A DNA stretch of 64,000 bases from a virus. Both the position numbers and the translations under genes were made by a program. The stretch covers positions 51,872-115,871 of the IMG/VR virus record IMGVR_UViG_3300037502_002145, one strand, 5' to 3'. Below are positions 29,798 to 55,141 of the stretch, piece after piece (positions within the stretch are counted from its first letter, which is position 1; every line of letters starts with the position of its first letter). The notes beneath the pieces were generated by a model. The model was not told the origin of the DNA. It ran no database searches and saw only the letters and a program-made list of their open reading frames with translations.

Positions 29798-31230
29798 GTG
29801 GGAAGGAGTAGTATGGAAAGATTAACAAAGCAATATTCTGCTGGTTATGGGTTATTAAAAACAAATGATGAATTTTGTGATTCTTACTGTAAAAAACAGA
29901 TGGTTGAAACGTGTAATGAATGTGCTATTAATGAAGCAATACATAAATTGGCAGAGTATGAAAATACAGGACTAACACCAGAAGTTTGTAAAAATTATAA
30001 ACTGTTTGAAGACGAAGTTATAGCCAGTGGTAGAGATTTTAACTACATATTAAAATTATTAAAAGATGATGTAAAGCGTAAACCTATGAAACCAGAAAGG
30101 TTAACATATAAAGCCTTGCTTGAATTGGGTTGGAGATGGCAATGCCCCAATTGTATGGCAGCAACTGGTGAAAACATTTATCACCCAGATGTAACGGGTG
30201 ATGAAAACTATTGTTGCACTTGTGGACAGAAACTTGATTGGAAATAAAATGTGGATTTTAAATGGAAAGGCGTAACATGAAAATTAAAAATAAAAAAGTA
30301 AGAGATGTCTTACATGATGTTATTAAGGATCTTGCAAATGCAAGTAAAAATTCGTATAGTCTTGTAGGAGCAACTAGAAGAGATATTGACTCGGCAAGGT
30401 CGAGGATAAACACACTGTTAACGTTAATTGATTTTGAAGAAGAATAGAAAAGGAGAATAATATGAATAAATTTAGTCAAAGAGAGAATGAATTAATAACA
30501 CATTGCTGGGATGAACCGGATAAGGTTAAGATCAATATTGATCCAACTACAAAAAGGGCAGTTATATACAACGCAGAAGATAATAAGATACTTTGTACAC
30601 TAAGAAACAATGATGTTTTGGCGGAGCAGCTAATCTATTTATGTGACATAAAACCTACATATAAAAAGTTGTAAATTTTATCAAGAAAATAAATATAAAA
30701 CTATTGACATGGTGATTTGAGTGTGCTACAATTACTTTATCACCTAAGGACATTAATATAAAACATAAAAGGTGGTGAGAACAGTGAGAACAAAGGGGTT
30801 GTGTGTTTGCAGAAAATGTGGTAACACTTTTCATCAAAGCAAGATAAAAAAAATACATAAAGAAGTGTTAGGAATAGATTCAATTGAATTAGTATGTCCT
30901 AGATGCGAAAGTTTTAATTTTGGGTTGATTAATTATCGTGAGTTATTTTCTTTAGAAGGTGTTTACAAAACTAGCAGATTTTTTAATAGATAATAATCAT
31001 ACATTAGAAAGGAGCTGGGTCAAATACAATCATGGAAAAGTGTTGAGATCACAAAAGAAGATTTTAATAAATATAGGTGGTGTACAAAAGAAGAAATTAG
31101 AGAATATATAACTAGCCTAAGTATTAAGTTAGGGTGGAAACCTAGTGTCAGAGGTTATAAGGACACCAGATTGAAGGTTGATAATGGTAAATATTATGCT
31201 GAATGGCTACATGAATACAGTATATATTAA
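29798..31230 (+). other. small hypothetical ORFs, several with Zn-ribbon CxxC pairs (29798-30247, 30277-30447, 30462-30674, 30772-30993, 31024-31230)
   Basis: RBS-led ORFs; the last has only an ATA/CTG start. Confidence 0.55.
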
Positions 31231-31364
31231 GTAAAGGATATTAATATAAAACTTAAATTAAATAAAATAAAACCGTGTTTTTATCAAGAAAAAAAGAAGT
31301 TTTACAATGGAATAATCAAAAATATTAAGATTGTTCCAAATCAATTATTAAATATAATTGCGGT

Positions 31365-31560
31365 ATATTCCCATGCCGAAAGGTGAGAACTTAATACATA
31401 ATGAAACGAAATTTAAATGTTACTCACCAAAGCTTGAAATATAGCAGGCTGCTTAATAGCAGACATTTCAGTCAACCTCTAATAATGTAAATTATATAGT
31501 AGGTCGACAATCCTAGTAATTAAAATATTACTTAGATATTTATTGTTAATCTTAAACAGA
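31365..31560 (+). ncRNA. putative tracrRNA of the Cas12f system
   Basis: TTGTTC-16-TATAAT promoter (31331-31358); anti-repeat TATTGTTAATCTTAAAC at 31541-31557; ATTCCCAT (31367) can pair with the repeat 3' end; GGTGAG/CTCACC stem. Confidence 0.7.
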
Positions 31561-31648
31561 AAAAATTATCTTAAAATAAGTCAAAAGTAATAGGTCGACA
31601 ATCGAGACTGTGAAACACATTATAAATTCTTGATATTTTGAGTATCGG

Positions 31649-31875
31649 GTTTAAGGATAAACAATGTTGTAATGTGAATCATTCCGAATTGGTATAACGT
31701 TAGACGAATACAACGTTTAAGATAAATAATATTGTAATGTGAATGAGTCTGGGGCTGAAAACGCTAGCACAAGTAGTTTAGGTTTAAGATGAACAATATT
31801 GTAATGTGAATCTCTATTCAGTGCTAAGTATACTAGAACTAATCCGTTTAATATAAATAATATCTTAAGTTGAAT
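31649..31875 (+). CRISPR. mini CRISPR array, 4 repeats (~30 nt, GTTTAAGATAAACAATATTGTAATGTGAAT) and 3 spacers
   Basis: Repeats 31649-31679, 31715-31744, 31782-31811, degenerate 31846-31875; spacers of 35, 37 and 34 nt. Confidence 0.9.
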
Positions 31876-31921
31876 AAATATAACAATAATATATATAACA
31901 AATAGTAAAAGGAGAATGTAA

Positions 31922-33202
31922 ATGTCAGATAGATTAACCATATGTAGAAAAATAAAACTTTATCCAGTAGGAGATAAAGAAGAAATAAATAGGACATACA
32001 AATTTATAAGAGATGGTCAGTATTATCAATATAAAGGTTTAAATTTATTAATGGGGCAATTAGTAAGTAAGTTCTATGAGTGTGGAATGGATCTAAAAAG
32101 TCAAATATTTAAAGATTGGCAAAATGTTAATTTATGTAATACAAATCAGTTTTTAGATTTAGATTTTGCAAAAGGAGTTGACACTAAATCTTTAATAAAG
32201 CAAAAAGTAAAACAAGATTTTTCAACAGCTATAAAGAATGGATTAATGAAAGGTGAAAGAAATCCACCTACATACAAAAGAGATTTTCCATTATTGACAA
32301 GAGGAAGAGATTTGAAATTTTATCATGAATATGAAGATTATCCAGAATTTTTAAGTAATTTACGTAAGAATAATGATGTTGTATTTATTAAGTGGGTCAA
32401 TGGTATTGTATTTAAAGTGGTGTTAGGCAATCCTAAAAAATCACAAGAGTTAAGAAGTGTGATTCAACAGATATTTGAAGAAAATTACAAAGTTCAAGGA
32501 AGTACGATAGAAGTGAATGATAAGGAAATAATATTAAACTTATCAATATCAATACCAAAGAAAACAATAGAACTTAATGAAGATACATCTATTGGAGTAG
32601 ACTTAGGAATCGCAGTACCGGCTGTGTGTGCCGTTAATAACAATGATTATAAAAAGTGTTTTATAGGCTCTAAAGATGACTTTTTAAGAGTTAGAACACA
32701 ATTGCAAAATCAAAGGAAAAGACTTCAAAGATCACTAAAATCAACTTCTGGTGGACATGGAAGAAGTAAAAAATTATCTTCGTTGGATAATTTAAAAGAT
32801 AGAGAATCAAATTTTGTTCAAACTTACAATCATTATGTTAGTAAGCAAGTAGTGGATTTTGCAATTAAAAATAAAGCTAAATATATTAACATGGAAGATT
32901 TGAGTGGTTTTGATTCAAGTGAGTTTATATTGAGGAATTGGAGCTATTATCAATTACAACAATATATAACATATAAAGCAGATAAATATGGAATAGAAGT
33001 TAGATACATTAATCCATATCATACATCTCAAATATGCTCTTGCTGTGGACACTGGGAAGAAGGACAGAGAATTAATCAGTCAACATTTGTTTGTAAGTCT
33101 TGTGGTTATTCTGTTAATGCAGATTTTAATGCTGCAAGAAATATAGCAAAGTCAGATAAATATATTTCTAAGAAAGGAAGTGGTTCAGTTGCAAAAGAAT
33201 AA
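31922..33202 (+). CDS. cas12f: type V-F CRISPR effector Cas12f1 (426 aa)
   Basis: RKIKL, NGLMKGER..TYKRDFPLLTRGRDLKF, GVDLG, GGHGR, INMEDL, LRNWSYYQLQ, CxxC..CxxC, NADFNAARNIA; closely resembles clostridial Cas12f1 as recalled; adjacent array and anti-repeat. Confidence 0.85.
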   Translation: MSDRLTICRKIKLYPVGDKEEINRTYKFIRDGQYYQYKGLNLLMGQLVSKFYECGMDLKSQIFKDWQNVNLCNTNQFLDLDFAKGVDTKSLIKQKVKQDFSTAIKNGLMKGERNPPTYKRDFPLLTRGRDLKFYHEYEDYPEFLSNLRKNNDVVFIKWVNGIVFKVVLGNPKKSQELRSVIQQIFEENYKVQGSTIEVNDKEIILNLSISIPKKTIELNEDTSIGVDLGIAVPAVCAVNNNDYKKCFIGSKDDFLRVRTQLQNQRKRLQRSLKSTSGGHGRSKKLSSLDNLKDRESNFVQTYNHYVSKQVVDFAIKNKAKYINMEDLSGFDSSEFILRNWSYYQLQQYITYKADKYGIEVRYINPYHTSQICSCCGHWEEGQRINQSTFVCKSCGYSVNADFNAARNIAKSDKYISKKGSGSVAKE

Positions 33203-35479: not shown

Positions 35480-36667
35480 ATTTATAAAACAAAGATAATA
35501 CCAGTTAAATGCGATAAAAATGATTATGAATATCTAAAGGGGTTAAATAAATTATCTGCCGAAGTATGGAATTATTGTGTAAAAATTGATAAAGAATATT
35601 ATGAGCTTAATGGTAAACATATGGATATGAAAACTATGCAATTTGCTGTAAAGGGATGCGTTAAACTACATGCAAAAGGAATAAATCATGTATACAGAAA
35701 ATATTTAACGGCTAGGGATGCTATGTTTAGATCAATTAAAGCAAAACATAAAAACAGCAACAAAGTGAAATTGCCATATAAATGTAAGAGATATTTTAAT
35801 ACTGGATGGGATTACCAAAGCATAATTTGTGATTATAATAAAGGGTTGTTAAAATTGTCAAGACCTGTCGGGATAGCTACAGATGGCAAAAGACAAAGAG
35901 CATCGCCTGTAAAGTGTTATACAAAAGAGATACCGCAAAATGTAGTTGAGATAGAGTTAACATATAAAAATAGATTAAACTTAGTCATAAAATATAAAGA
36001 GCCCGATATTACACGGAACATAGCTTCTGCTAATTCAGCCGCTATTGATTTAGGCGAAATACATAGTGTTGCTTCAATAGATAATAACGGCAATGCAATT
36101 ATCATTACAGGCAGAAAAATAAGAAGCATAAAAAGACTGAGAAATAAGGAGCAAGGAAAACTACGCTCCAAGATGTCAAAATGTAAAAAGTATAGTAAAC
36201 AATATAAGAAATACAATCGTGCTTTATATCATATTAAATACGAGAGTGAAAAGCAGATACTTGATTGTGTTCACAAGATAAGCAAATTATATCTTGATTA
36301 CTGTATAGAAAATCAAATATCTACAGTGTATTATGGTGATTTAGATAATTGCACTAGAAATAGTTCTGAAAGAATCGGAAAGTTTGTTGGTCAAAAGCTT
36401 AACGAGTGGAATTATGGTAAATTAACTTCACAATTGCACAACAAACTAGAACAATACGGAATAAGACTGATTAAAATTAATGAAGCATATAGTTCTCAAA
36501 CATGTCCGAATTGCCACAAAAGACACAAACCAAAAGGGAGGAATTACATATGTGAATGTGGTTATAAACAGCACAGAGATTTAGTTGGAGCAATAAATAT
36601 ATTAAATTTTAATAGCACGACAAAAATAAAACTATATGAAACATTTAAGTATCTACGGATAGAGTAA
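35480..36667 (+). CDS. tnpB: RNA-guided endonuclease TnpB, orphan; probable ATT start
   Basis: In-frame N-terminal extension IYKTKIIPVKC...SAEVWNYC after AGGAGGTG; AIDLGE, NEAYSSQTCPNC, HRDLVGAINI. Confidence 0.85.
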   Translation: MYKTKIIPVKCDKNDYEYLKGLNKLSAEVWNYCVKIDKEYYELNGKHMDMKTMQFAVKGCVKLHAKGINHVYRKYLTARDAMFRSIKAKHKNSNKVKLPYKCKRYFNTGWDYQSIICDYNKGLLKLSRPVGIATDGKRQRASPVKCYTKEIPQNVVEIELTYKNRLNLVIKYKEPDITRNIASANSAAIDLGEIHSVASIDNNGNAIIITGRKIRSIKRLRNKEQGKLRSKMSKCKKYSKQYKKYNRALYHIKYESEKQILDCVHKISKLYLDYCIENQISTVYYGDLDNCTRNSSERIGKFVGQKLNEWNYGKLTSQLHNKLEQYGIRLIKINEAYSSQTCPNCHKRHKPKGRNYICECGYKQHRDLVGAINILNFNSTTKIKLYETFKYLRIE

Positions 36668-42398: not shown

Positions 42399-45300
42399 GT
42401 GTCGGAGTTATTGAACATTGTAAATAAAGTAAAAGAAAGATTGAGTTTTCAGTTTTCATATGATACAAGTAAATGGATAAATGAAATGAATATGATGATA
42501 GAAAATTATCATAAACACACAACTTGGTCTGACTTAGTTCAGATGGATTCAGCTACAGATATAAATGAATTTATTAGTTTGTCTGATTCATATGGGTGTC
42601 AATGTTATTTTTCTGGCGAACATGGATTTCAAGGTGAGTGGCTATATGTGTACGACATTTGTAAAAACACTCAAGATGATAAATATAGAACTAAAAATAA
42701 ACTATCCAAACCAATTAAATTCAGGTATTCAACTGAAGCGTATTGGGTTAAAGATATTAATGAAAAAGATAATACAAATTGTCATATTGTAATAGTTGCC
42801 AGAACATATCAGGCAATGAGAAAACTTAATTATTTAATATCAATAGCTCATACAGATGGGTTTTATTATAAGCCAAGACTAGATTTAAACCTACTATTTC
42901 AATTAAGTAAAGAAGAGGTTTATATAACTTCTTCTTGCATTGCTGGGTGGAAATATGATGACGCACAAGAAATATGGTTGAGGTTTTTTGAACACTTTGG
43001 AGATAGCTTCTTTTTAGAATATCAAGCAAATAATACCGATAAACAAAAAAAGATAAATAGGTTGATATATCAATTATCTAAGAAACATGGTATTCAAACA
43101 ATTATTGGTTTAGATACTCATTATATTAATGAAGAAGATAGAATAAAGAGAGATAATTTATTAAAAAGAAAAAGCCTATCATATCCAGAAGAAGACGGTT
43201 GGTATATGGATTTTCCCAATGGCAAAGAAGTACATAAAAGAATGATAGAGCAAGGGGTATTACCAACAGAAGAAATAATTTATGCTATGATGAATACGCA
43301 TGTTTTTATTGATGGTTGTGATGATGTAAAAATAAATACAGACTTTAAAATACCAATACTTAAAGAATACCAAAATCACACGTACAAAGAAAGATCTAAT
43401 ATATTATTGGATTTACTTAAGAAAAAATACAATGAAGAAGAGTGTCAGACAAAAGATAGAGAAGATGGAATGTATTATGAATATGGAGAAGTTGATGGAA
43501 GTCATACTGTAGATTACTTTTTAGATAACTACGCTTTAGTTAATCTTGCAAATACAAAATATGGCGGTCAATTAACTCCTACATCCAGAGGTAGTGCAAG
43601 TTCTTATTATTCTAGTAAGTTATTAGGTTTTACCACTATGGATAGATTTGAATCCGAAGTACCGATTTATCCTGAAAGATTCATTACCAAAGAGAGAATT
43701 TTATCATCTCATCAAATGCCAGATATAGATTTTAACGTTAGCAATCAAGAACCATATGTACTAGCAGCTAAAGAGTTATTTGGTGAGCATGGGTGCTATC
43801 CTTTGTTGGCAACAGGAAAATTAGGAGAAAAGTCAGGATTTAAGTTGTACGCCGATATAAGGGGAATTGAACCTAGTATTGCGAATGAGATTTCTAAATG
43901 TATTGATCAATATAACGAAGCGTTAAAACAAGTCGATGATGAAGAAGATAAAAAAGATATTCACATTGAGGACTACATAACATCTCCGAAGCATTTAAAA
44001 ATATTCAACGACAGTAAATCATATCAAGGCATTATAGAGCAAGCAAAGGTTCATGCGTGTGGTTTCTTTTTATTCAACGGTAATATTAACGAAAAAGATG
44101 TTGTGGGATATGGAGATATTCGATATGAAATAGGTCTTATCAGATGTTCTTCTGAAAGTACAGGTAAGACAACAATCGTTGCGTGTATCGAAGGTGGATT
44201 ATTGGATTCTTACGGCTATGTAAAGGATGATTTTCTTATAGTTGATGTTGTAGGTATCATTTACAAATTGTATAACAGTATTGGAATGAAAGTACCGACT
44301 GTTGGCGAGTTAAGAAAAATGGTAAATGGAGACACTAAAACATGGAGGATGTATGAAATTGGTGCTACTTGTAGTTTAAACCAATGTGAAAAACCAGCGA
44401 CGACAAAAAGAGTAATGAAGTACAAACCAAAGGAGATAAAGGAGCTCGCCGCATTTATAGCTGGAATTCGCCCGGGCTTTAAATCATTGATTGATGGATT
44501 CCTTAATAGGATTGAATACAGTAACGGAGAAAAAGCTATAGATGATCTGTTAAAAGATTGTTTTCAATACATGCTTTATCAAGAGGCGGTTATGAAAATA
44601 TTTTCCTATCTTGGTATTCCAATGAAAGAAAGTTATGATACGATTAAAAAAATAAGTAAGAAAAAGCTTGTAGGAGAAAAACTTGCTCATGTAGAAGAAA
44701 CTCTAAAAAGCCACTGGTTAGATAATATAGGCAATTTAGATAACTTTGAGCCTGTTTACAAGGTTGTAAAAGACAGTGCGAGATATTCATTTAATGCTCC
44801 ACATGCCTTGGCTATGGCAAACGATTCATTATATGAAGCATGGGTAAAGGCTCATCATACATCTACTTTTTATGAAGTCACCTTAAATCATTATCAGGAT
44901 AAAGGAGATAAGAATAAAGTTGCTGCGTTAATAAAAGAAGCAATGTCTATATTCGGCTATACTATGGGTAAATACGAATATGGAAAAGACAATTCCAAAT
45001 TTACAGTAGATGACACAGAAAAAGTAATTTACCCTAATCTAGCAAGCGTTAAGGGCATCGGTGTTCAAGTTTTAACAGACATGATGGGGATTTATAAAAG
45101 CGGATGCAATAACTTTATAGATATTTGTCAAGCGATCAGGGGAACTAAAATAAACTCTACGGTGTTTAAAAATTTAGTTAAGATAGGTTACTTTAATAAA
45201 TTTGGTTCTGTTAAAAAGTTGATATCGACTCTTGAAATATATGAATATTGGAAAGGTTCAAGTGGTGATGGCAGAAAAACCATATCCAAGTCAGACATTA

Positions 45301-45806
45301 GTGAGTTAGGATTAGAAGATGTAGATTTACATAAATTTGCCACAGATCAAACAAAAAGTGGAAAAACAAGTGATAAGCAATATACTAATTTAGATTGGGT
45401 CGGTTTAGTTAGAGAACTGTCCTCTAAATTGCCAGATGAAGAGTTTGGGATTGGAGTTCTTGTAAAATATCAGTACGAGGTTCTTGGATACATTGACTAT
45501 ATTAACCCTAAGTTAGACACGAGATATGCAGTTATAACTGATTTAGATTGTACTTATTCACCTAAATTTAATGCATATTGTATTGCCAATGGTAAGACGG
45601 CTGAAATGAAGATACATAAGAAACTAAATTACAATGACAAAGAAACAAAAGTTAGTTTTCAACAATGTCCTGTTGAAGATGGTGACATAATTTATTTAAG
45701 ACAATGTAAGAAAAAACAGAGACAAAAGAAAATAAACGATGATTGGGTTGACATACCTGACGTATTCGACTGGTGGATTAAAGATTATTATAAGGTGGTG
45801 ATTTAA
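42399..45806 (+). CDS. dnaE: DNA polymerase III alpha subunit (DnaE-type)
   Basis: PHP domain (NYHKHT, EHG, DTHY), RGSASS, MPDIDFN, HACG, KDDFL, YQE, YSFNAPHA. Confidence 0.95.
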   Translation: MSELLNIVNKVKERLSFQFSYDTSKWINEMNMMIENYHKHTTWSDLVQMDSATDINEFISLSDSYGCQCYFSGEHGFQGEWLYVYDICKNTQDDKYRTKNKLSKPIKFRYSTEAYWVKDINEKDNTNCHIVIVARTYQAMRKLNYLISIAHTDGFYYKPRLDLNLLFQLSKEEVYITSSCIAGWKYDDAQEIWLRFFEHFGDSFFLEYQANNTDKQKKINRLIYQLSKKHGIQTIIGLDTHYINEEDRIKRDNLLKRKSLSYPEEDGWYMDFPNGKEVHKRMIEQGVLPTEEIIYAMMNTHVFIDGCDDVKINTDFKIPILKEYQNHTYKERSNILLDLLKKKYNEEECQTKDREDGMYYEYGEVDGSHTVDYFLDNYALVNLANTKYGGQLTPTSRGSASSYYSSKLLGFTTMDRFESEVPIYPERFITKERILSSHQMPDIDFNVSNQEPYVLAAKELFGEHGCYPLLATGKLGEKSGFKLYADIRGIEPSIANEISKCIDQYNEALKQVDDEEDKKDIHIEDYITSPKHLKIFNDSKSYQGIIEQAKVHACGFFLFNGNINEKDVVGYGDIRYEIGLIRCSSESTGKTTIVACIEGGLLDSYGYVKDDFLIVDVVGIIYKLYNSIGMKVPTVGELRKMVNGDTKTWRMYEIGATCSLNQCEKPATTKRVMKYKPKEIKELAAFIAGIRPGFKSLIDGFLNRIEYSNGEKAIDDLLKDCFQYMLYQEAVMKIFSYLGIPMKESYDTIKKISKKKLVGEKLAHVEETLKSHWLDNIGNLDNFEPVYKVVKDSARYSFNAPHALAMANDSLYEAWVKAHHTSTFYEVTLNHYQDKGDKNKVAALIKEAMSIFGYTMGKYEYGKDNSKFTVDDTEKVIYPNLASVKGIGVQVLTDMMGIYKSGCNNFIDICQAIRGTKINSTVFKNLVKIGYFNKFGSVKKLISTLEIYEYWKGSSGDGRKTISKSDISELGLEDVDLHKFATDQTKSGKTSDKQYTNLDWVGLVRELSSKLPDEEFGIGVLVKYQYEVLGYIDYINPKLDTRYAVITDLDCTYSPKFNAYCIANGKTAEMKIHKKLNYNDKETKVSFQQCPVEDGDIIYLRQCKKKQRQKKINDDWVDIPDVFDWWIKDYYKVVI

Positions 45807-53239: not shown

Positions 53240-55141
53240 ATGTATTTTAAAACAACTTACACAGAAGAATTTGATGATTTATATATGCACTTAAAAGCAA
53301 AATATCCACAAAAATTATTTGATCTTGATGGTATTGGTAAACAGTTAGATATGTCTGAATTTAGTAAGAACTTTTTTGCATCAAGTGTAACGGCAGATGC
53401 AAGTATAGACGCTAATGCTAACGTAGATGATGTGTCCGTTATCGCTTACAACACTGAATTACCTAAGCCATTTTTTAAGATCAACAGTTACTACGTATTA
53501 TGGAAAGAATTAAGAAGATTATATGGGTTAGAAGTAGCCAATAACATAGTTGAATTACAATTAACTGGGGGTATTTACATACATGATTTTCATGGAGTAG
53601 GAGCTGGTATGCCGTATTGTTTTAATTATTCTACATACGACATAATGACCAAAGGACTCCCTATGGTTAAAAAAGTTAAATCGTTACCACCTAAGCACCT
53701 ATATGCATTCAAATCACAACTAGAACAATTTACCGTTATTGCATCAAATTCAACATTAGGAGCTACTGGATTAGCAGATTTATTGGTTGTAATGAGTTAC
53801 TACGTTAATAACATACTAAAAAGCAAAACAGACGCACACTTTAAGTTTGAAACAGAAGAAGATTGCTGGATTTATGTAAAAGAGAACATTATTTCTTTTA
53901 TTTATACAATTAACCAACCAATGAGAGCAAATCAATCCCCATTTACAAACATCAGCATTTATGATGAATATTTTTTAGATAAGTTATGTGATGATTATCT
54001 TTTTCCAGACGGTTCAAATCCTAATAAAGAGATAGTAAAAAACCTACAGAAAATATATTTAGATATTATGAATGATGAATTACGTAGAACTCCGCTAACT
54101 TTTCCTGTGACAACGGCTTGTTTTTCAATTGATAGTGAAAATAACATAAAAGATGAAGCATTTTTAAGGTTTATTGCTGAACAAAATAAGGAATATGGGT
54201 TTATCAATATATATTGTGGCGACAGTTCAACGCTTTCAAGTTGCTGTAGGTTAAGATCAGAACAGAAATCAGAATACTTTAATTCATTTGGTAGTGGTTC
54301 AAGTAAAATTGGTAGCCTTGGAGTGTGTTCAATAAATTTCCCAAGATTAGCTATTCAGTTCCCTAATAGAGAAGACTTTTTACAACAACTAGTAAAAATG
54401 GTAGAAGTCTGTGCGAAAGTTAATAATGCAAAAAGGCACATAATCGAAAAGAGAATTAAAAATGGGAATGAGCCACTATACACGTTAGGATATATGGAAT
54501 TGTCAAAACAGTATTCAACGGTGGGGGTCAACGGTTTTAATGAATGTATTGAGATTTTAGGGGAAGATATACTAGAAGAAAATGGTCAAAATCTTGCTAT
54601 CGAAATATTAGATACAATTAATTTAACCAACACAAAGTTCCAAAAGCAATATAATGCGCCACACAATTGTGAACAAGTACCGGCAGAAGGTTTGTCAGTT
54701 AAATTAGCAGACAAAGATAAACTGCTTGGATATCAACATGATTATGACATTTATAGTAATCAATTTATTCCTCTAGTAACAAATGCAGATATGTTAGATA
54801 GAATTAAATTACAAGGGATGTTTGATAAACATTTCTCAGGTGGAGCAATATGTCACTTAAATGTTGATTCTAAAATTGAGAAAACTGAAGACATAATGGA
54901 TCTAATTCGTATTACTGCAAAGATGGGCGTTGTTTATCATGCTATCAATTATGTATTAGAAGAATGTGAAGATGGTCATATGAGCGTAGGAAATGGCGAA
55001 GTATGCTCAATATGTGGAAAACCAATTATTAATAAATACACTCGTGTTGTTGGATTCCTTACTAATGTAAAGAATTGGAATAAAACACGTAGAGAAAAAG
55101 ATTTTCCTAACCGTCAATTTTACGGCGGAGTACAAGTGTAA
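53240..55141 (+). CDS. nrdD: anaerobic (class III) ribonucleoside-triphosphate reductase
   Basis: YIHD, PYC, TFPV, SSCCRL, GSLGVCSIN, PAE, SGG, RVVGF glycyl-radical motif. Confidence 0.95.
   Translation: MYFKTTYTEEFDDLYMHLKAKYPQKLFDLDGIGKQLDMSEFSKNFFASSVTADASIDANANVDDVSVIAYNTELPKPFFKINSYYVLWKELRRLYGLEVANNIVELQLTGGIYIHDFHGVGAGMPYCFNYSTYDIMTKGLPMVKKVKSLPPKHLYAFKSQLEQFTVIASNSTLGATGLADLLVVMSYYVNNILKSKTDAHFKFETEEDCWIYVKENIISFIYTINQPMRANQSPFTNISIYDEYFLDKLCDDYLFPDGSNPNKEIVKNLQKIYLDIMNDELRRTPLTFPVTTACFSIDSENNIKDEAFLRFIAEQNKEYGFINIYCGDSSTLSSCCRLRSEQKSEYFNSFGSGSSKIGSLGVCSINFPRLAIQFPNREDFLQQLVKMVEVCAKVNNAKRHIIEKRIKNGNEPLYTLGYMELSKQYSTVGVNGFNECIEILGEDILEENGQNLAIEILDTINLTNTKFQKQYNAPHNCEQVPAEGLSVKLADKDKLLGYQHDYDIYSNQFIPLVTNADMLDRIKLQGMFDKHFSGGAICHLNVDSKIEKTEDIMDLIRITAKMGVVYHAINYVLEECEDGHMSVGNGEVCSICGKPIINKYTRVVGFLTNVKNWNKTRREKDFPNRQFYGGVQV

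What the first reader, a model, noticed from the sequence alone, without database searches (positions are those of the whole stretch)
31331..33202. Complete miniature phage CRISPR-Cas12f1 system (~1.9 kb) without adaptation genes
Seen: promoter, structured RNA with a 17-nt anti-repeat (31541-31557, 16/17 to consensus) and a 5' ATTCCCAT able to pair with the repeat 3' end, then 4 repeats and 3 spacers (CATTCCGAATTGGTATAACGTTAGACGAATACAAC; GAGTCTGGGGCTGAAAACGCTAGCACAAGTAGTTTAG; CTCTATTCAGTGCTAAGTATACTAGAACTAATCC), then a 426-aa Cas12f with all three RuvC acidic residues intact. No cas1/2/4 is present, and I saw no self-target in this window by eye. Established: phage-borne type V-F systems exist. 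Inference: an inter-phage/MGE competition weapon and a candidate new compact editor.
Basis: partly seen in the sequence, partly recalled or inferred. Interest (0 to 1): 0.75.

Follow-up and report, generated by a model that had tools for sequence, protein, structure and literature searches.

The report
Phage-borne miniature CRISPR-Cas12f1 locus
A temperate tailed phage from a subsurface metagenome carries a real, pocket-sized CRISPR system (helper RNA, three guides and a 426-residue Cas12f1 nuclease, no guide-acquiring genes); the enzyme type is known and this scan has met the same phage family several times before.

Summary
Window 31360-33202 (+ strand) holds a tracrRNA-like scaffold, four 30-31-nt repeats with three spacers (35, 37 and 34 nt), and an intact 426-aa type V-F1 (former V-U3) Cas12f1. 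Its nearest solved relatives are CnCas12f1 (8HR5, E 2e-108) and RhCas12f (9NZP, E 2e-95).

The scaffold is homologous to the validated Cn/Rh guide RNAs and to about 28 scaffolds beside phage relatives. Two stems covary (97% of cells paired, 10 of 14 pairs compensatory). The stem-1 loop covaries with the repeat 3' end.

A proximal half at 31463-31471 pairs with the invariant 3' 13 nt of the repeat.

The 116-kb record is a tailed, integrase-bearing phage with no Cas1, Cas2, Cas4 or TnpA.

I found no target for its three spacers, and no RNA data exist. The repeats are not identical, so the array looks old and static.

In relatives, one spacer matches a 42-kb rival element beside a 5'-TCCA motif. 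That supports the weapon reading by analogy only.

It is a new member of a known kind. The scan reported this phage Cas12f family on at least seven other genomes.

The parts
31331..31358 (+). Candidate sigma-70-type promoter: -35 TTGTTC (31331-31336), 16-nt spacer, -10 TATAAT (31353-31358)
   Evidence: Read from the sequence. It was not listed by the consensus scan because the -35 matches only 3 of 6. Its expected start near 31365 would cut into stem 1, so it is doubtful. An alternative is TTATCA-16-TACAAT at 31281-31308.
31361..31378 (+). tracrRNA stem 1 (CGGUAU / AUGCCG) with a 6-nt loop AUUCCC. Loop bases 31367-31370 (AUUC) pair with the last four bases of the repeat (GAAU) to form the pseudoknot (R:AR-1).
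   Evidence: MFE fold. Six pairs, five of them with compensatory changes, in 28 homologous scaffolds. Loop versus repeat 3' end covariation: 0 of 5000 permutations reach the observed value. Cn/Rh have the loop AUUUA with a repeat end UAAAU.
31382..31428 (+). tracrRNA stem 2 (GGUGAGAAC ... GUU-A-CUCACC) with a bulged A31422 that is invariant
   Evidence: 8 pairs, 98.7% of cells paired, 5 compensatory. Covariance model R1 scores 55.8 bits on 31356-31443, but this sequence was part of the model's training set.
31431..31460 (+). Stem 3 (AGCUUG/CAGGCU) and a small hairpin (GCU-UAAU-AGC). They occupy the position of stem 3 of the Cn/Rh guide RNAs.
   Evidence: MFE and cofold. Position compared by eye with the Rh/Cn tracrRNAs in Supplementary Data 1 of PMC10090079. 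No covariation data.
31463..31471 (+). Proximal anti-repeat ACAUUUCAG. It pairs with repeat nt 18-26 (UUGUAAUGU): 8 pairs including one G-U, plus one U-U mismatch.
   Evidence: RNAcofold with the spacer blocked. It sits in the same place in the scaffold, and pairs with the same place in the repeat, as CAUUCCA of Rh and CGUUUCACA of Cn. On its own it is short enough to arise by chance.
31472..31540 (+). Inserted domain of two predicted hairpins between the two anti-repeat halves. It contains copy A of a 16-nt direct repeat (31497-31512).
   Evidence: No homologue in any relative examined.
31541..31557 (+).
   Evidence: (16/17 to R3; 0 of 500 shuffles reach it; RNAduplex -17.5 to -19.4 kcal/mol).
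31558..31648 (+). Leader. It holds copy B of the 16-nt direct repeat (31588-31603), a third short anti-repeat-like CACAUUAU (31613-31620), and the conserved leader end GATATTTTGAG (31632-31642) followed by 6 extra nt, TATCGG.
   Evidence: Relatives end their leaders in ATTTGAG directly before repeat 1.
31649..31679 (+). Repeat 1 (31 nt, one extra G)
31680..31714 (+). Spacer 1 (35 nt)
   Evidence: No target found.
31715..31744 (+). Repeat 2 (30 nt, reference copy)
31745..31781 (+). Spacer 2 (37 nt)
   Evidence: No target found.
31782..31811 (+). Repeat 3 (30 nt, 2 differences from R2)
31812..31845 (+). Spacer 3 (34 nt)
   Evidence: No target found.
31846..31875 (+). Repeat 4, the degenerate terminal repeat (5 differences, including in the 3' handle)
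31908..31914 (+). Ribosome-binding site AAAGGAG, 7 nt before the ATG
   Evidence: Read
31922..33202 (+). cas12f1, 426 aa. RuvC D227/E325/D401; zinc ribbon C372/C375/C391/C394; residues D87/R127/R129 equivalent to the PAM-reading D77/R117/R119 of RhCas12f.
   Evidence: PMC13186708

Best explanation
This is a self-contained type V-F1 CRISPR-Cas12f1 cassette carried by a temperate tailed phage. Everything in this paragraph is inferred from sequence and from relatives. One + strand transcription unit most likely gives a tracrRNA of about 110-200 nt (from about 31360), a three-spacer pre-crRNA and the cas12f1 mRNA. The mature guide is expected to keep the invariant 3' 13 nt of the repeat (UUGUAAUGUGAAU) followed by about 20 nt of spacer. 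GAAU pairs with the stem-1 loop as a pseudoknot, and UUGUAAUGU pairs with the proximal anti-repeat at 31463-31471. This is the same layout as in the validated CnCas12f1 and RhCas12f1 single guides. The distal 17-nt anti-repeat pairs with the 5' half of the repeat. It probably makes a long duplex that is cut during processing and then discarded (inferred). By homology, the nuclease acts as a dimer on one guide RNA. It would then cut double-stranded DNA next to a 5' C-rich motif (CCN), because the three residues that read it in RhCas12f are conserved. With no Cas1, Cas2 or Cas4 and non-identical repeats, the three guides are a fixed, inherited set. By analogy with relatives, they are aimed at competing phages or other mobile elements in the same host. 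Only the sequence anatomy and its conservation are shown. Expression, processing, PAM, cleavage and targets are all inferred. The confidence given (0.65) is for the whole statement, including present-day activity. That it is a genuine type V-F1 Cas12f1 locus in a phage I put at about 0.9.
For: Protein:
- phmmer against PDB sequences: 8hr5 at E 2e-108 and 9nzp at E 2.4e-95. Their sequences equal CnCas12f1 and RhCas12f1 as printed in PMC10090079 Supplementary Data 1 and as assigned in PMC13186708.
- PADLOC: Cas12u3 at 1.3e-123 and Cas12f (V-F) at 3e-122, both full length.
- Pfam Cas12f1-like_TNB and NCBIfam guided_TnpB.
- Catalytic and zinc residues are invariant.

Repeat:
- It has the same orientation and the same ends as the Cn and Rh repeats: GTT... 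at the start and ...AATGTRAAT at the end.

Scaffold:
- Stems 1 and 2 are 97.4% paired over 28 scaffolds, with 10 of 14 pairs compensatory. 0 of 500 shuffles reach this, and slid controls give 27-46%.
- Pseudoknot covariation covers at least 8 loop/repeat-end classes. 0 of 5000 permutations reach the observed value.
- The distal anti-repeat is beyond chance.
- Cofold gives a bipartite repeat:anti-repeat duplex.

Context:
- Phage hallmark genes are present.
- There is no Cas1/2/4 and no TnpA.
- The record holds a single scaffold, and it lies at this locus.

Family:
- 38 IMG/VR loci.
- No Cas1 in 5 relatives' records, 3 of which are at least 99% complete.
- One relative's spacer has a 30/30 protospacer in a 42-kb viral contig. 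A second contig has the flank TCCA.
- Another relative's spacer matches its own genome at 26/28 beside ACCT, with mismatches at guide positions 3 and 6.
Against: - No protospacer was found for any of the three spacers. I searched the 50,697 phage records, PLSDB plasmids, IMG/VR (exact 22-mers only) and the phage's own 116 kb.
- Repeats differ from each other at several positions and R4 is degenerate, as in an old or decaying array.
- The pseudoknot has only 4 contiguous pairs. Relatives have 4-6, most of them 5 or 6.
- The leader's conserved end is separated from repeat 1 by 6 extra nt.
- Three different short segments (31463-31471, 31525-31531, 31613-20) could each pair with the same part of the repeat, so the exact tracrRNA 3' end is not settled.
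- The promoter is not established, and no terminator was found.
- The record is only 81% complete by CheckV, so adaptation genes could lie in the missing part.
Confidence: 0.65

Rival explanations
1. Fossil locus. The array and tracrRNA are decaying remnants that no longer give working guides. The nuclease gene is retained by chance or for another role.
For: - Non-identical repeats, a degenerate R4, and a pseudoknot shorter than in most relatives.
- A displaced leader anchor and a 67-nt insertion with a flanking 16-nt direct repeat inside the anti-repeat region.
- No targets found.
- Relatives show decayed forms: L042 has a lone repeat remnant and L067 a truncated gene.
Against: - The ORF is intact with all catalytic, zinc and PAM-reading residues.
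- Stems 1 and 2 are intact and score 55.8 bits against the family model (W was part of the model's training set).
- The 13 nt of the repeat that the mature guide needs are identical in R1-R3, while the 5' half varies.
- The RBS is strong.
Confidence: 0.2
2. The guides are aimed at the host rather than at rival elements. Targets could be a host defence locus or a chromosomal site used for regulation or takeover.
For: No mobile-element target was found for S1-S3. The host genome is unknown, so it could not be searched. Reviews describe phage CRISPR systems that target host defence (PMC11656645).
Against: The only family-level targets I found lie in viral contigs. A cutting Cas12f aimed at the chromosome of a lysogen's own host would be costly for a temperate phage with an integrase.
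Confidence: 0.1
3. A TnpB-type transposon nuclease that uses a 3' omegaRNA. On this reading the upstream repeats are unrelated to it.
For: NCBIfam's best model is guided_TnpB. PDB entries of relatives are titled 'transposase'. A second TnpB-like ORF lies 2.4 kb downstream.
Against: - There is no TnpA in the record.
- Only 55 nt separate the stop codon from the next ORF, and no scaffold lies there.
- The upstream scaffold is homologous to validated Cas12f1 tracrRNAs and covaries with the repeat.
- Cas12f models match over the full length.
Confidence: 0.03

Closest known systems
CnCas12f1 (Clostridium novyi, 497 aa, PDB 8HR5) and RhCas12f1 (Ruminiclostridium herbifermentans, 415 aa, PDB 9NZP): type V-F1 (former V-U3)
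   Same: - Nearest solved relatives (E 2e-108 and 2e-95).
- 29-30-nt repeats starting GTT and ending AATGTRAAT.
- The tracrRNA has the same order of parts: stem 1 whose loop pairs with the repeat's last bases, then stem 2, stem 3 and the anti-repeat.
- The TRGRD and GxDTKS residues that read the C-rich PAM in RhCas12f are conserved.
   Different: - Carried by a phage.
- The repeat ends GAAU (loop AUUC) instead of UAAAU (loop AUUUA).
- The anti-repeat is split in two by a 67-nt domain.
- It lacks the long N-terminal insertion of Cn.
- Activity is untested.
Phage Cas12f1 cassettes of IMG/VR gut-type phages (L003, L015-L052 here), reported before by this scan on other genomes
   Same: - The protein is 51-66% identical by tblastn best segment. 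The closest protein overall is 72% identical by BLASTP and comes from a metagenome contig.
- Stems 1 and 2 of the scaffold are the same.
- The scaffold is co-oriented and upstream of a mini-array.
- No adaptation genes.
- The conserved leader end (A)TTTGAG is present.
   Different: - Relatives have 2-3 cassettes per gene, each with its own loop/repeat pairing, 36-nt repeats, spacers of about 30 nt, a short scaffold with the anti-repeat straight after stem 2, and identical repeats with spacer turnover between sister phages.
- The window has one cassette, 30-nt non-identical repeats, 34-37-nt spacers, 215 nt between stem 2 and repeat 1, and 6 nt between the leader anchor and the repeat.
- The flanking genes are not shared.
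TnpB with omegaRNA (IS200/IS605, OMEGA systems)
   Same: Same protein superfamily (RuvC plus zinc ribbon). The guide scaffold has a pseudoknot next to the guide.
   Different: No TnpA and no transposon ends. The guide RNA lies 5' of the gene and is split into tracrRNA and an array. The protein is about 27% identical to the TnpB-like ORF in the same window.
Cas12j (CasPhi) and Cas-lambda: phage-encoded compact type V effectors
   Same: Phage-borne, compact, with no adaptation module, and thought to serve competition between elements.
   Different: By my recollection, those use crRNA alone, without a tracrRNA, and are 700-800 aa. The sequence relation is only marginal (7lys, E 0.001).

Membership tests
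Type V-F1 CRISPR-Cas12f1 | Small (400-700 aa) effector with a TnpB-like RuvC (D-E-D) and a C-terminal zinc-ribbon (TNB) domain | tested here: met
   426 aa. PF07282 at 3.5e-24. PADLOC Cas12u3/Cas12f full length at 1e-123 and 3e-122. D227/E325/D401 and four Cys are invariant.
Type V-F1 CRISPR-Cas12f1 | Sequence kinship with experimentally validated Cas12f1 nucleases | tested here: met
   8hr5 (CnCas12f1) at 2e-108; 9nzp (RhCas12f) at 2.4e-95; Al3, As, Os and Un1 Cas12f at 1e-67 to 1e-27
Type V-F1 CRISPR-Cas12f1 | CRISPR array next to the gene, transcribed so that the repeat precedes the spacer | tested here: met
   4 repeats and 3 spacers at 31649-31875, on the same strand, 46 nt before the ATG. 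The orientation is fixed by likeness to the Cn/Rh repeats and by the degenerate last repeat.
Type V-F1 CRISPR-Cas12f1 | tracrRNA with an anti-repeat and a pseudoknot to the repeat 3' end | tested here: met
   In silico only. The evidence is homology to the Cn/Rh tracrRNAs, covarying stems, covarying loop and repeat end, an anti-repeat beyond chance and the cofold result.
Type V-F1 CRISPR-Cas12f1 | Expression and processing of tracrRNA and crRNA | not testable with these tools
   Only the DNA run of the source sample holds the locus.
Type V-F1 CRISPR-Cas12f1 | Homodimer on one guide RNA; PAM-dependent double-strand DNA cleavage | not testable with these tools
   Only indirect evidence: the PAM-reading residues of RhCas12f (D77, R117, R119; PMC13186708) align with D87, R127 and R129.
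Type V-F1 CRISPR-Cas12f1 | Adaptation module cas1-cas2(-cas4). From memory, some V-F loci have one, and it does not define the subtype. | tested here: not met
   No PF01867, PF09827 or PF01930 match in the 115,871-bp record, which is 81% complete.
TnpB / IS200-IS605 (OMEGA) | Association with TnpA, or with transposon ends and a 3' omegaRNA | tested here: not met
   No Y1 transposase. There is no scaffold 3' of the gene, and only 55 nt of intergenic DNA carrying the next RBS.
Multi-cassette phage Cas12f1 loci (IMG/VR relatives) | Scaffold stems 1 and 2 with a private loop/repeat-end pairing, co-oriented with the gene | tested here: met
Multi-cassette phage Cas12f1 loci (IMG/VR relatives) | Two or three cassettes; 36-nt GTTTTAG repeats and 30-nt spacers; the leader ATTTGAG abuts repeat 1; the anti-repeat follows stem 2 directly | tested here: not met
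   The window has one cassette, 30-nt repeats, 34-37-nt spacers, 6 nt between GATATTTTGAG and repeat 1, and extra hairpins before the anti-repeat.

The most novel reading that the evidence does not exclude
The window's cassette is a working, hard-wired three-guide weapon. Its tracrRNA carries a split anti-repeat with a 67-nt inserted domain. That makes it a natural link between the long tracrRNAs of cellular Cn/Rh-type Cas12f1 and the short, array-fused tracrRNAs of gut-phage cassettes. The distal half would serve only for host-RNase processing of an array that no longer acquires spacers.
Probability: 0.15. Interest if true: 0.5.

Novelty: new member of a known kind. Interest (0 to 1): 0.33.

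Why it matters
It adds a subsurface, SPbeta-like temperate phage to the hosts of type V-F1 systems. It also provides a 426-aa Cas12f1 with a guide design that can be read off by homology: scaffold 31360-31471, the 13-nt handle, and a predicted CCN PAM.

For biology, its value is comparative. Together with the relatives, it shows that the stem-1 loop and the repeat 3' end co-evolve as a private lock and key. It also shows that phage cassettes range from fast-turning arrays to static ones such as this.

It does not open a new question by itself, and its size offers no advantage over enzymes already engineered.

Tried and rejected
Spacer targets:
- blastn of S1-S3 against 50,697 phage records gave only chance-level hits, E 0.4 or more.
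- The whole array against PLSDB gave a best E of 0.2.
- Exact 22-mers of S1-S3 in IMG/VR gave 0 hits. Mismatched targets would be missed.
- The phage's own 116 kb has no match with 11 or fewer mismatches.
- About 100 spacers of relatives against six full phage genomes gave one non-array hit.

Expression and population data:
- No RNA holder is listed. Only the source DNA run holds the locus.
- Laying the contigs of three runs of that study on the array showed the identical source contig and one spurious 36-nt piece. There were no array variants and no protospacer contig.

Other searches:
- Rfam had no family at the gathering threshold in the whole window.
- blastn of the locus against the phage records found no match.
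- The metagenome and protein searches found no relative above 72% identity and none with the same long scaffold.

Ideas considered and dropped:
- A 36-nt repeat hidden by diverged flanks: the 6 nt on either side of the repeats are not conserved.
- A second decayed scaffold in 31560-31648: only the anti-repeat-plus-leader part resembles relatives.
- An Os-type tracrRNA from the AATCGAGAC(T)GTG similarity at 31599-31611: too short, with no stem partner.

The promoter scan was not informative (19 sites against 16.6 expected).
Full report
**What is there**

On the + strand the window shows a 420-nt non-coding stretch (31231-31648), then four repeats and three spacers (31649-31875), then a strong RBS and a 426-codon ORF (31922-33202). 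The repeats are 30 nt; R1 is 31 nt with one extra G. They are not identical: R3 differs from R2 at 2 positions, and R1 and R4 each at about 5. Only the 3' 13 nt, TTGTAATGTGAAT, is the same in R1-R3.

**The protein**

- Pfam gives Cas12f1-like_TNB (3.5e-24) and NCBIfam gives guided_TnpB (8e-58).
- PADLOC matches Cas12u3 (1.3e-123) and a V-F Cas12f model (3e-122) over the full length. By my knowledge of the 2020 classification, V-U3 was merged into V-F1.
- Against PDB sequences, the best hits are 8hr5 (E 2e-108) and 9nzp (E 2.4e-95), followed by other Cas12f structures. TnpB proper scores only 1e-5.
- The aligned N-termini of 8hr5 and 9nzp equal the CnCas12f1 and RhCas12f1 sequences printed in Supplementary Data 1 of PMC10090079. 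PMC13186708 assigns 9NZP to RhCas12f.
- In an alignment with seven relatives, D227 (GVDLG), E325 (INMEDL), D401 (NADFNAARN) and C372/C375/C391/C394 are invariant.
- RhCas12f reads its C-rich PAM with D77, R117 and R119 (PMC13186708). In the phmmer alignment these fall on D87, R127 and R129 of the window's protein. A 5'-CCN PAM is therefore the best guess. This is an inference.

**The guide RNA**

The same supplement gives the Cn and Rh repeats and tracrRNAs. The window's repeat has the same polarity and ends (GTT... / ...AATGTRAAT), which fixes transcription on the + strand.

The upstream RNA has the same order of parts as the Rh and Cn tracrRNAs:
- Stem 1, at 31361-31366 with 31373-31378, with a 6-nt loop.
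- An AAA linker.
- Stem 2, at 31382-31390 with 31419-31428, with a bulged A.
- A further stem (31431-31450) and a small hairpin.
- ACAUUUCAG at 31463-31471.

With the spacer blocked, RNAcofold pairs ACAUUUCAG with repeat nt 18-26. The remaining four repeat bases, GAAU, are complementary to AUUC in the stem-1 loop. In Cn and Rh, the loop AUUUA faces the repeat end UAAAU. The 13 invariant repeat bases are therefore exactly the part that the validated Cn/Rh single guides keep.

It pairs with the variable 5' half of the repeat, which is the part that PMC10090079 treats as trimmed from mature crRNAs. With a full repeat, cofold uses both segments and folds the 67 nt between them into two hairpins.

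Two other short segments could also pair with the same repeat bases: 31525-31531 (chosen by RNAduplex) and 31613-31620 (placed as in phage relatives). The mature 3' end is therefore open.

**Comparative support**

- Searches with the protein and with its family alignment found 38 loci in IMG/VR contigs of 7-171 kb, 17 in metagenomes and 3 in genomes (Roseburia, Lachnoclostridium, Erysipelotrichaceae). About 2000 proteins score E < 1e-40, and the nearest is 72% identical.
- Next to these genes lie scaffolds with the motif CCGAAAGGTGAG...CTCAC.
- On 28 distinct scaffolds, 97.4% of cells in the two stems pair and 10 of 14 pairs show changes on both sides. No shuffle of 500 reaches this, and slid controls give 27-46%.
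- The stem-1 loop tracks the last bases of the cognate repeat in at least eight classes: UUUUG/CAAAA, CUUUG/CAAAG, CCUUU/AAAGG, UUUGA/UCAAA, UUCAG/CUGAA, UUUCG/CGAAA, AUUUA/UAAAU, and the window's AUUC/GAAU. Permuting repeats among scaffolds never reaches the observed sum (117 against a mean of 89 and a maximum of 104; 0 of 5000).
- A covariance model of the scaffold finds one copy in the window's whole record and two or three per relative genome, always beside cas12f.

**How the window differs from its relatives**

Relatives usually have up to three cassettes: two upstream in tandem and one downstream. Each has a short scaffold whose anti-repeat follows stem 2 directly, a leader ending ATTTGAG that abuts repeat 1, identical 36-nt repeats, and spacers of about 30 nt. 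Spacer sets differ between sister phages.

The window has one cassette and Cn/Rh-like 30-nt repeats that have drifted apart. Its spacers are longer. Six extra nt lie between GATATTTTGAG and repeat 1, and 215 nt lie between stem 2 and repeat 1. None of its flanking genes recurs next to relatives, so the cassette moves as a unit. I read the array as old and static. The intact 13-nt handle argues that it is still used, but this contrast (0 of 13 against 4 of 17 variable sites) is weak.

**Context**

The window is the right-hand 64 kb of a 115,871-bp IMG/VR record. It is linear, CheckV 81% complete, and comes from a subsurface metagenome.
- The record encodes a tape measure, a portal, a minor tail protein, a large serine integrase and an exonuclease.
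- It also encodes a PolC-like polymerase, DnaB, a primase, NrdD and several methyltransferases.
- It is therefore a temperate tailed phage.
- There is no Cas1, Cas2, Cas4 or Y1 transposase match.
- Five relatives' records, three of them at least 99% complete, also lack Cas1.

**Function**

None of the three spacers has a target in the collections I could search.

For the family there are two leads.
- A spacer shared by six sister phages matches two 42-kb IMG/VR contigs of the same sample, inside a 49-codon ORF upstream of a sigma-factor gene. One contig has a 30/30 match with the flank TTCA. The other has the flank TCCA and a 3-nt insertion at guide position 25. The difference GTC/GTT is synonymous and removes the CC.
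- Another phage's spacer matches its own genome at 26/28 beside ACCT, with mismatches at guide positions 3 and 6.

Both fit a CCN PAM and conflict between mobile elements. Both are single examples.

**Novelty**

Reviews and surveys already state that compact type V systems are enriched in phages and nearly always lack adaptation genes (PMC11656645, PMC12607003). The landfill survey found no viral effector in the f1 group, so V-F1 in phages is not often reported.

This scan's own notes, however, describe the same phage family on at least seven other genomes. Those notes cover private tracrRNA cassettes, built-in single guides, type II-A-like arrays and rival-phage targets. They are AI notes. 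I saw the cassettes, the fusions and the ATTTGAG|GTTTTAG junction independently, but I did not test the idea that host II-A enzymes load the arrays.

The window's locus is a new, somewhat atypical member of a known kind.

Noticed in passing
window 35621-36667 (+): A second TnpB-like ORF (348 aa) with PF07282 and OrfB_IS605 hits, about 27% identical to the Cas12f1. In the pairwise alignment the RuvC-II Glu position reads G (YYGDLD). The record has no TnpA. Its guide RNA was not sought.
   Followed up: partly
window 31497-31512 and 31588-31603: A 16-nt direct repeat (TAGTAGGTCGACAATC / TAATAGGTCGACAATC) brackets the distal anti-repeat. Copy B overlaps a promoter-like TCGACA-17-CATTAT site (31595-31623). 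It could be an array promoter, a protein-binding site or a scar of an insertion. Unexplained.
   Followed up: partly
window 30997-31230: An open frame of 78 codons ends at 31230 but has no start codon behind the RBS at 31010. The ATG at 31032 is in another frame and stops after 4 codons. This may be a frameshift or an assembly error in the run GAAAAG.
   Followed up: no
window 31267-31284: The palindrome ATAAAA-CCGTGT-TTTTAT lies between the upstream gene and the cassette. It may act as a weak terminator or an operator, and it marks the left edge of the cassette's transcription unit.
   Followed up: partly
L019:2817-2925, L035:2820-2925, L004:5296-5400: In some relatives the scaffold is fused directly to the 3' part of a repeat (for example ...GATATAGTAAATTACAGATATCAAAAGG followed by a spacer). 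These are natural single-guide RNAs that resemble engineered sgRNAs.
   Followed up: partly
L015, L018, L023 (900-1500 and 2900-3100); L082, L101, L072-L073: One cas12f gene is served by up to three cassettes whose stem-1 loop and repeat 3' end differ (for example UUUUG/CAAAA beside CCUUU/AAAGG). The scaffolds occur nowhere else in these 130-170-kb phage genomes.
   Followed up: yes
L113:3768-3797 (-) and L114:3174-3206 (+): Protospacers for a relative's spacer lie in two 42-kb viral contigs, inside a 49-aa ORF upstream of a sigma-factor gene. The flank is TCCA in one and TTCA in the other; the difference is a synonymous GTC/GTT change. This looks like PAM escape.
   Followed up: partly
L079:17868-17901 (= G004:37868-37901): A spacer of the phage's own downstream array matches its own genome at 26/28 beside ACCT. 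The mismatches are at guide positions 3 and 6, and the match lies in a 411-aa ORF with weak tape-measure similarity.
   Followed up: partly
L042:1362-1500: The scaffold most like the window's (CGGTATATTCAGGTGCCGAAAGGTGAG) is followed by a single repeat remnant that ends right at the RBS of cas12f, with no spacer. L067 has a repeat joined to a cas12f gene that starts at residue 257.
   Followed up: no
window 42399-45806, 53240-55141; L012:720-2324: The phage carries a PolC-like DNA polymerase (1135 aa), an anaerobic ribonucleotide reductase and a 535-aa serine integrase. Together these suggest an SPbeta-like temperate phage of an anaerobic Bacillota host.
   Followed up: partly
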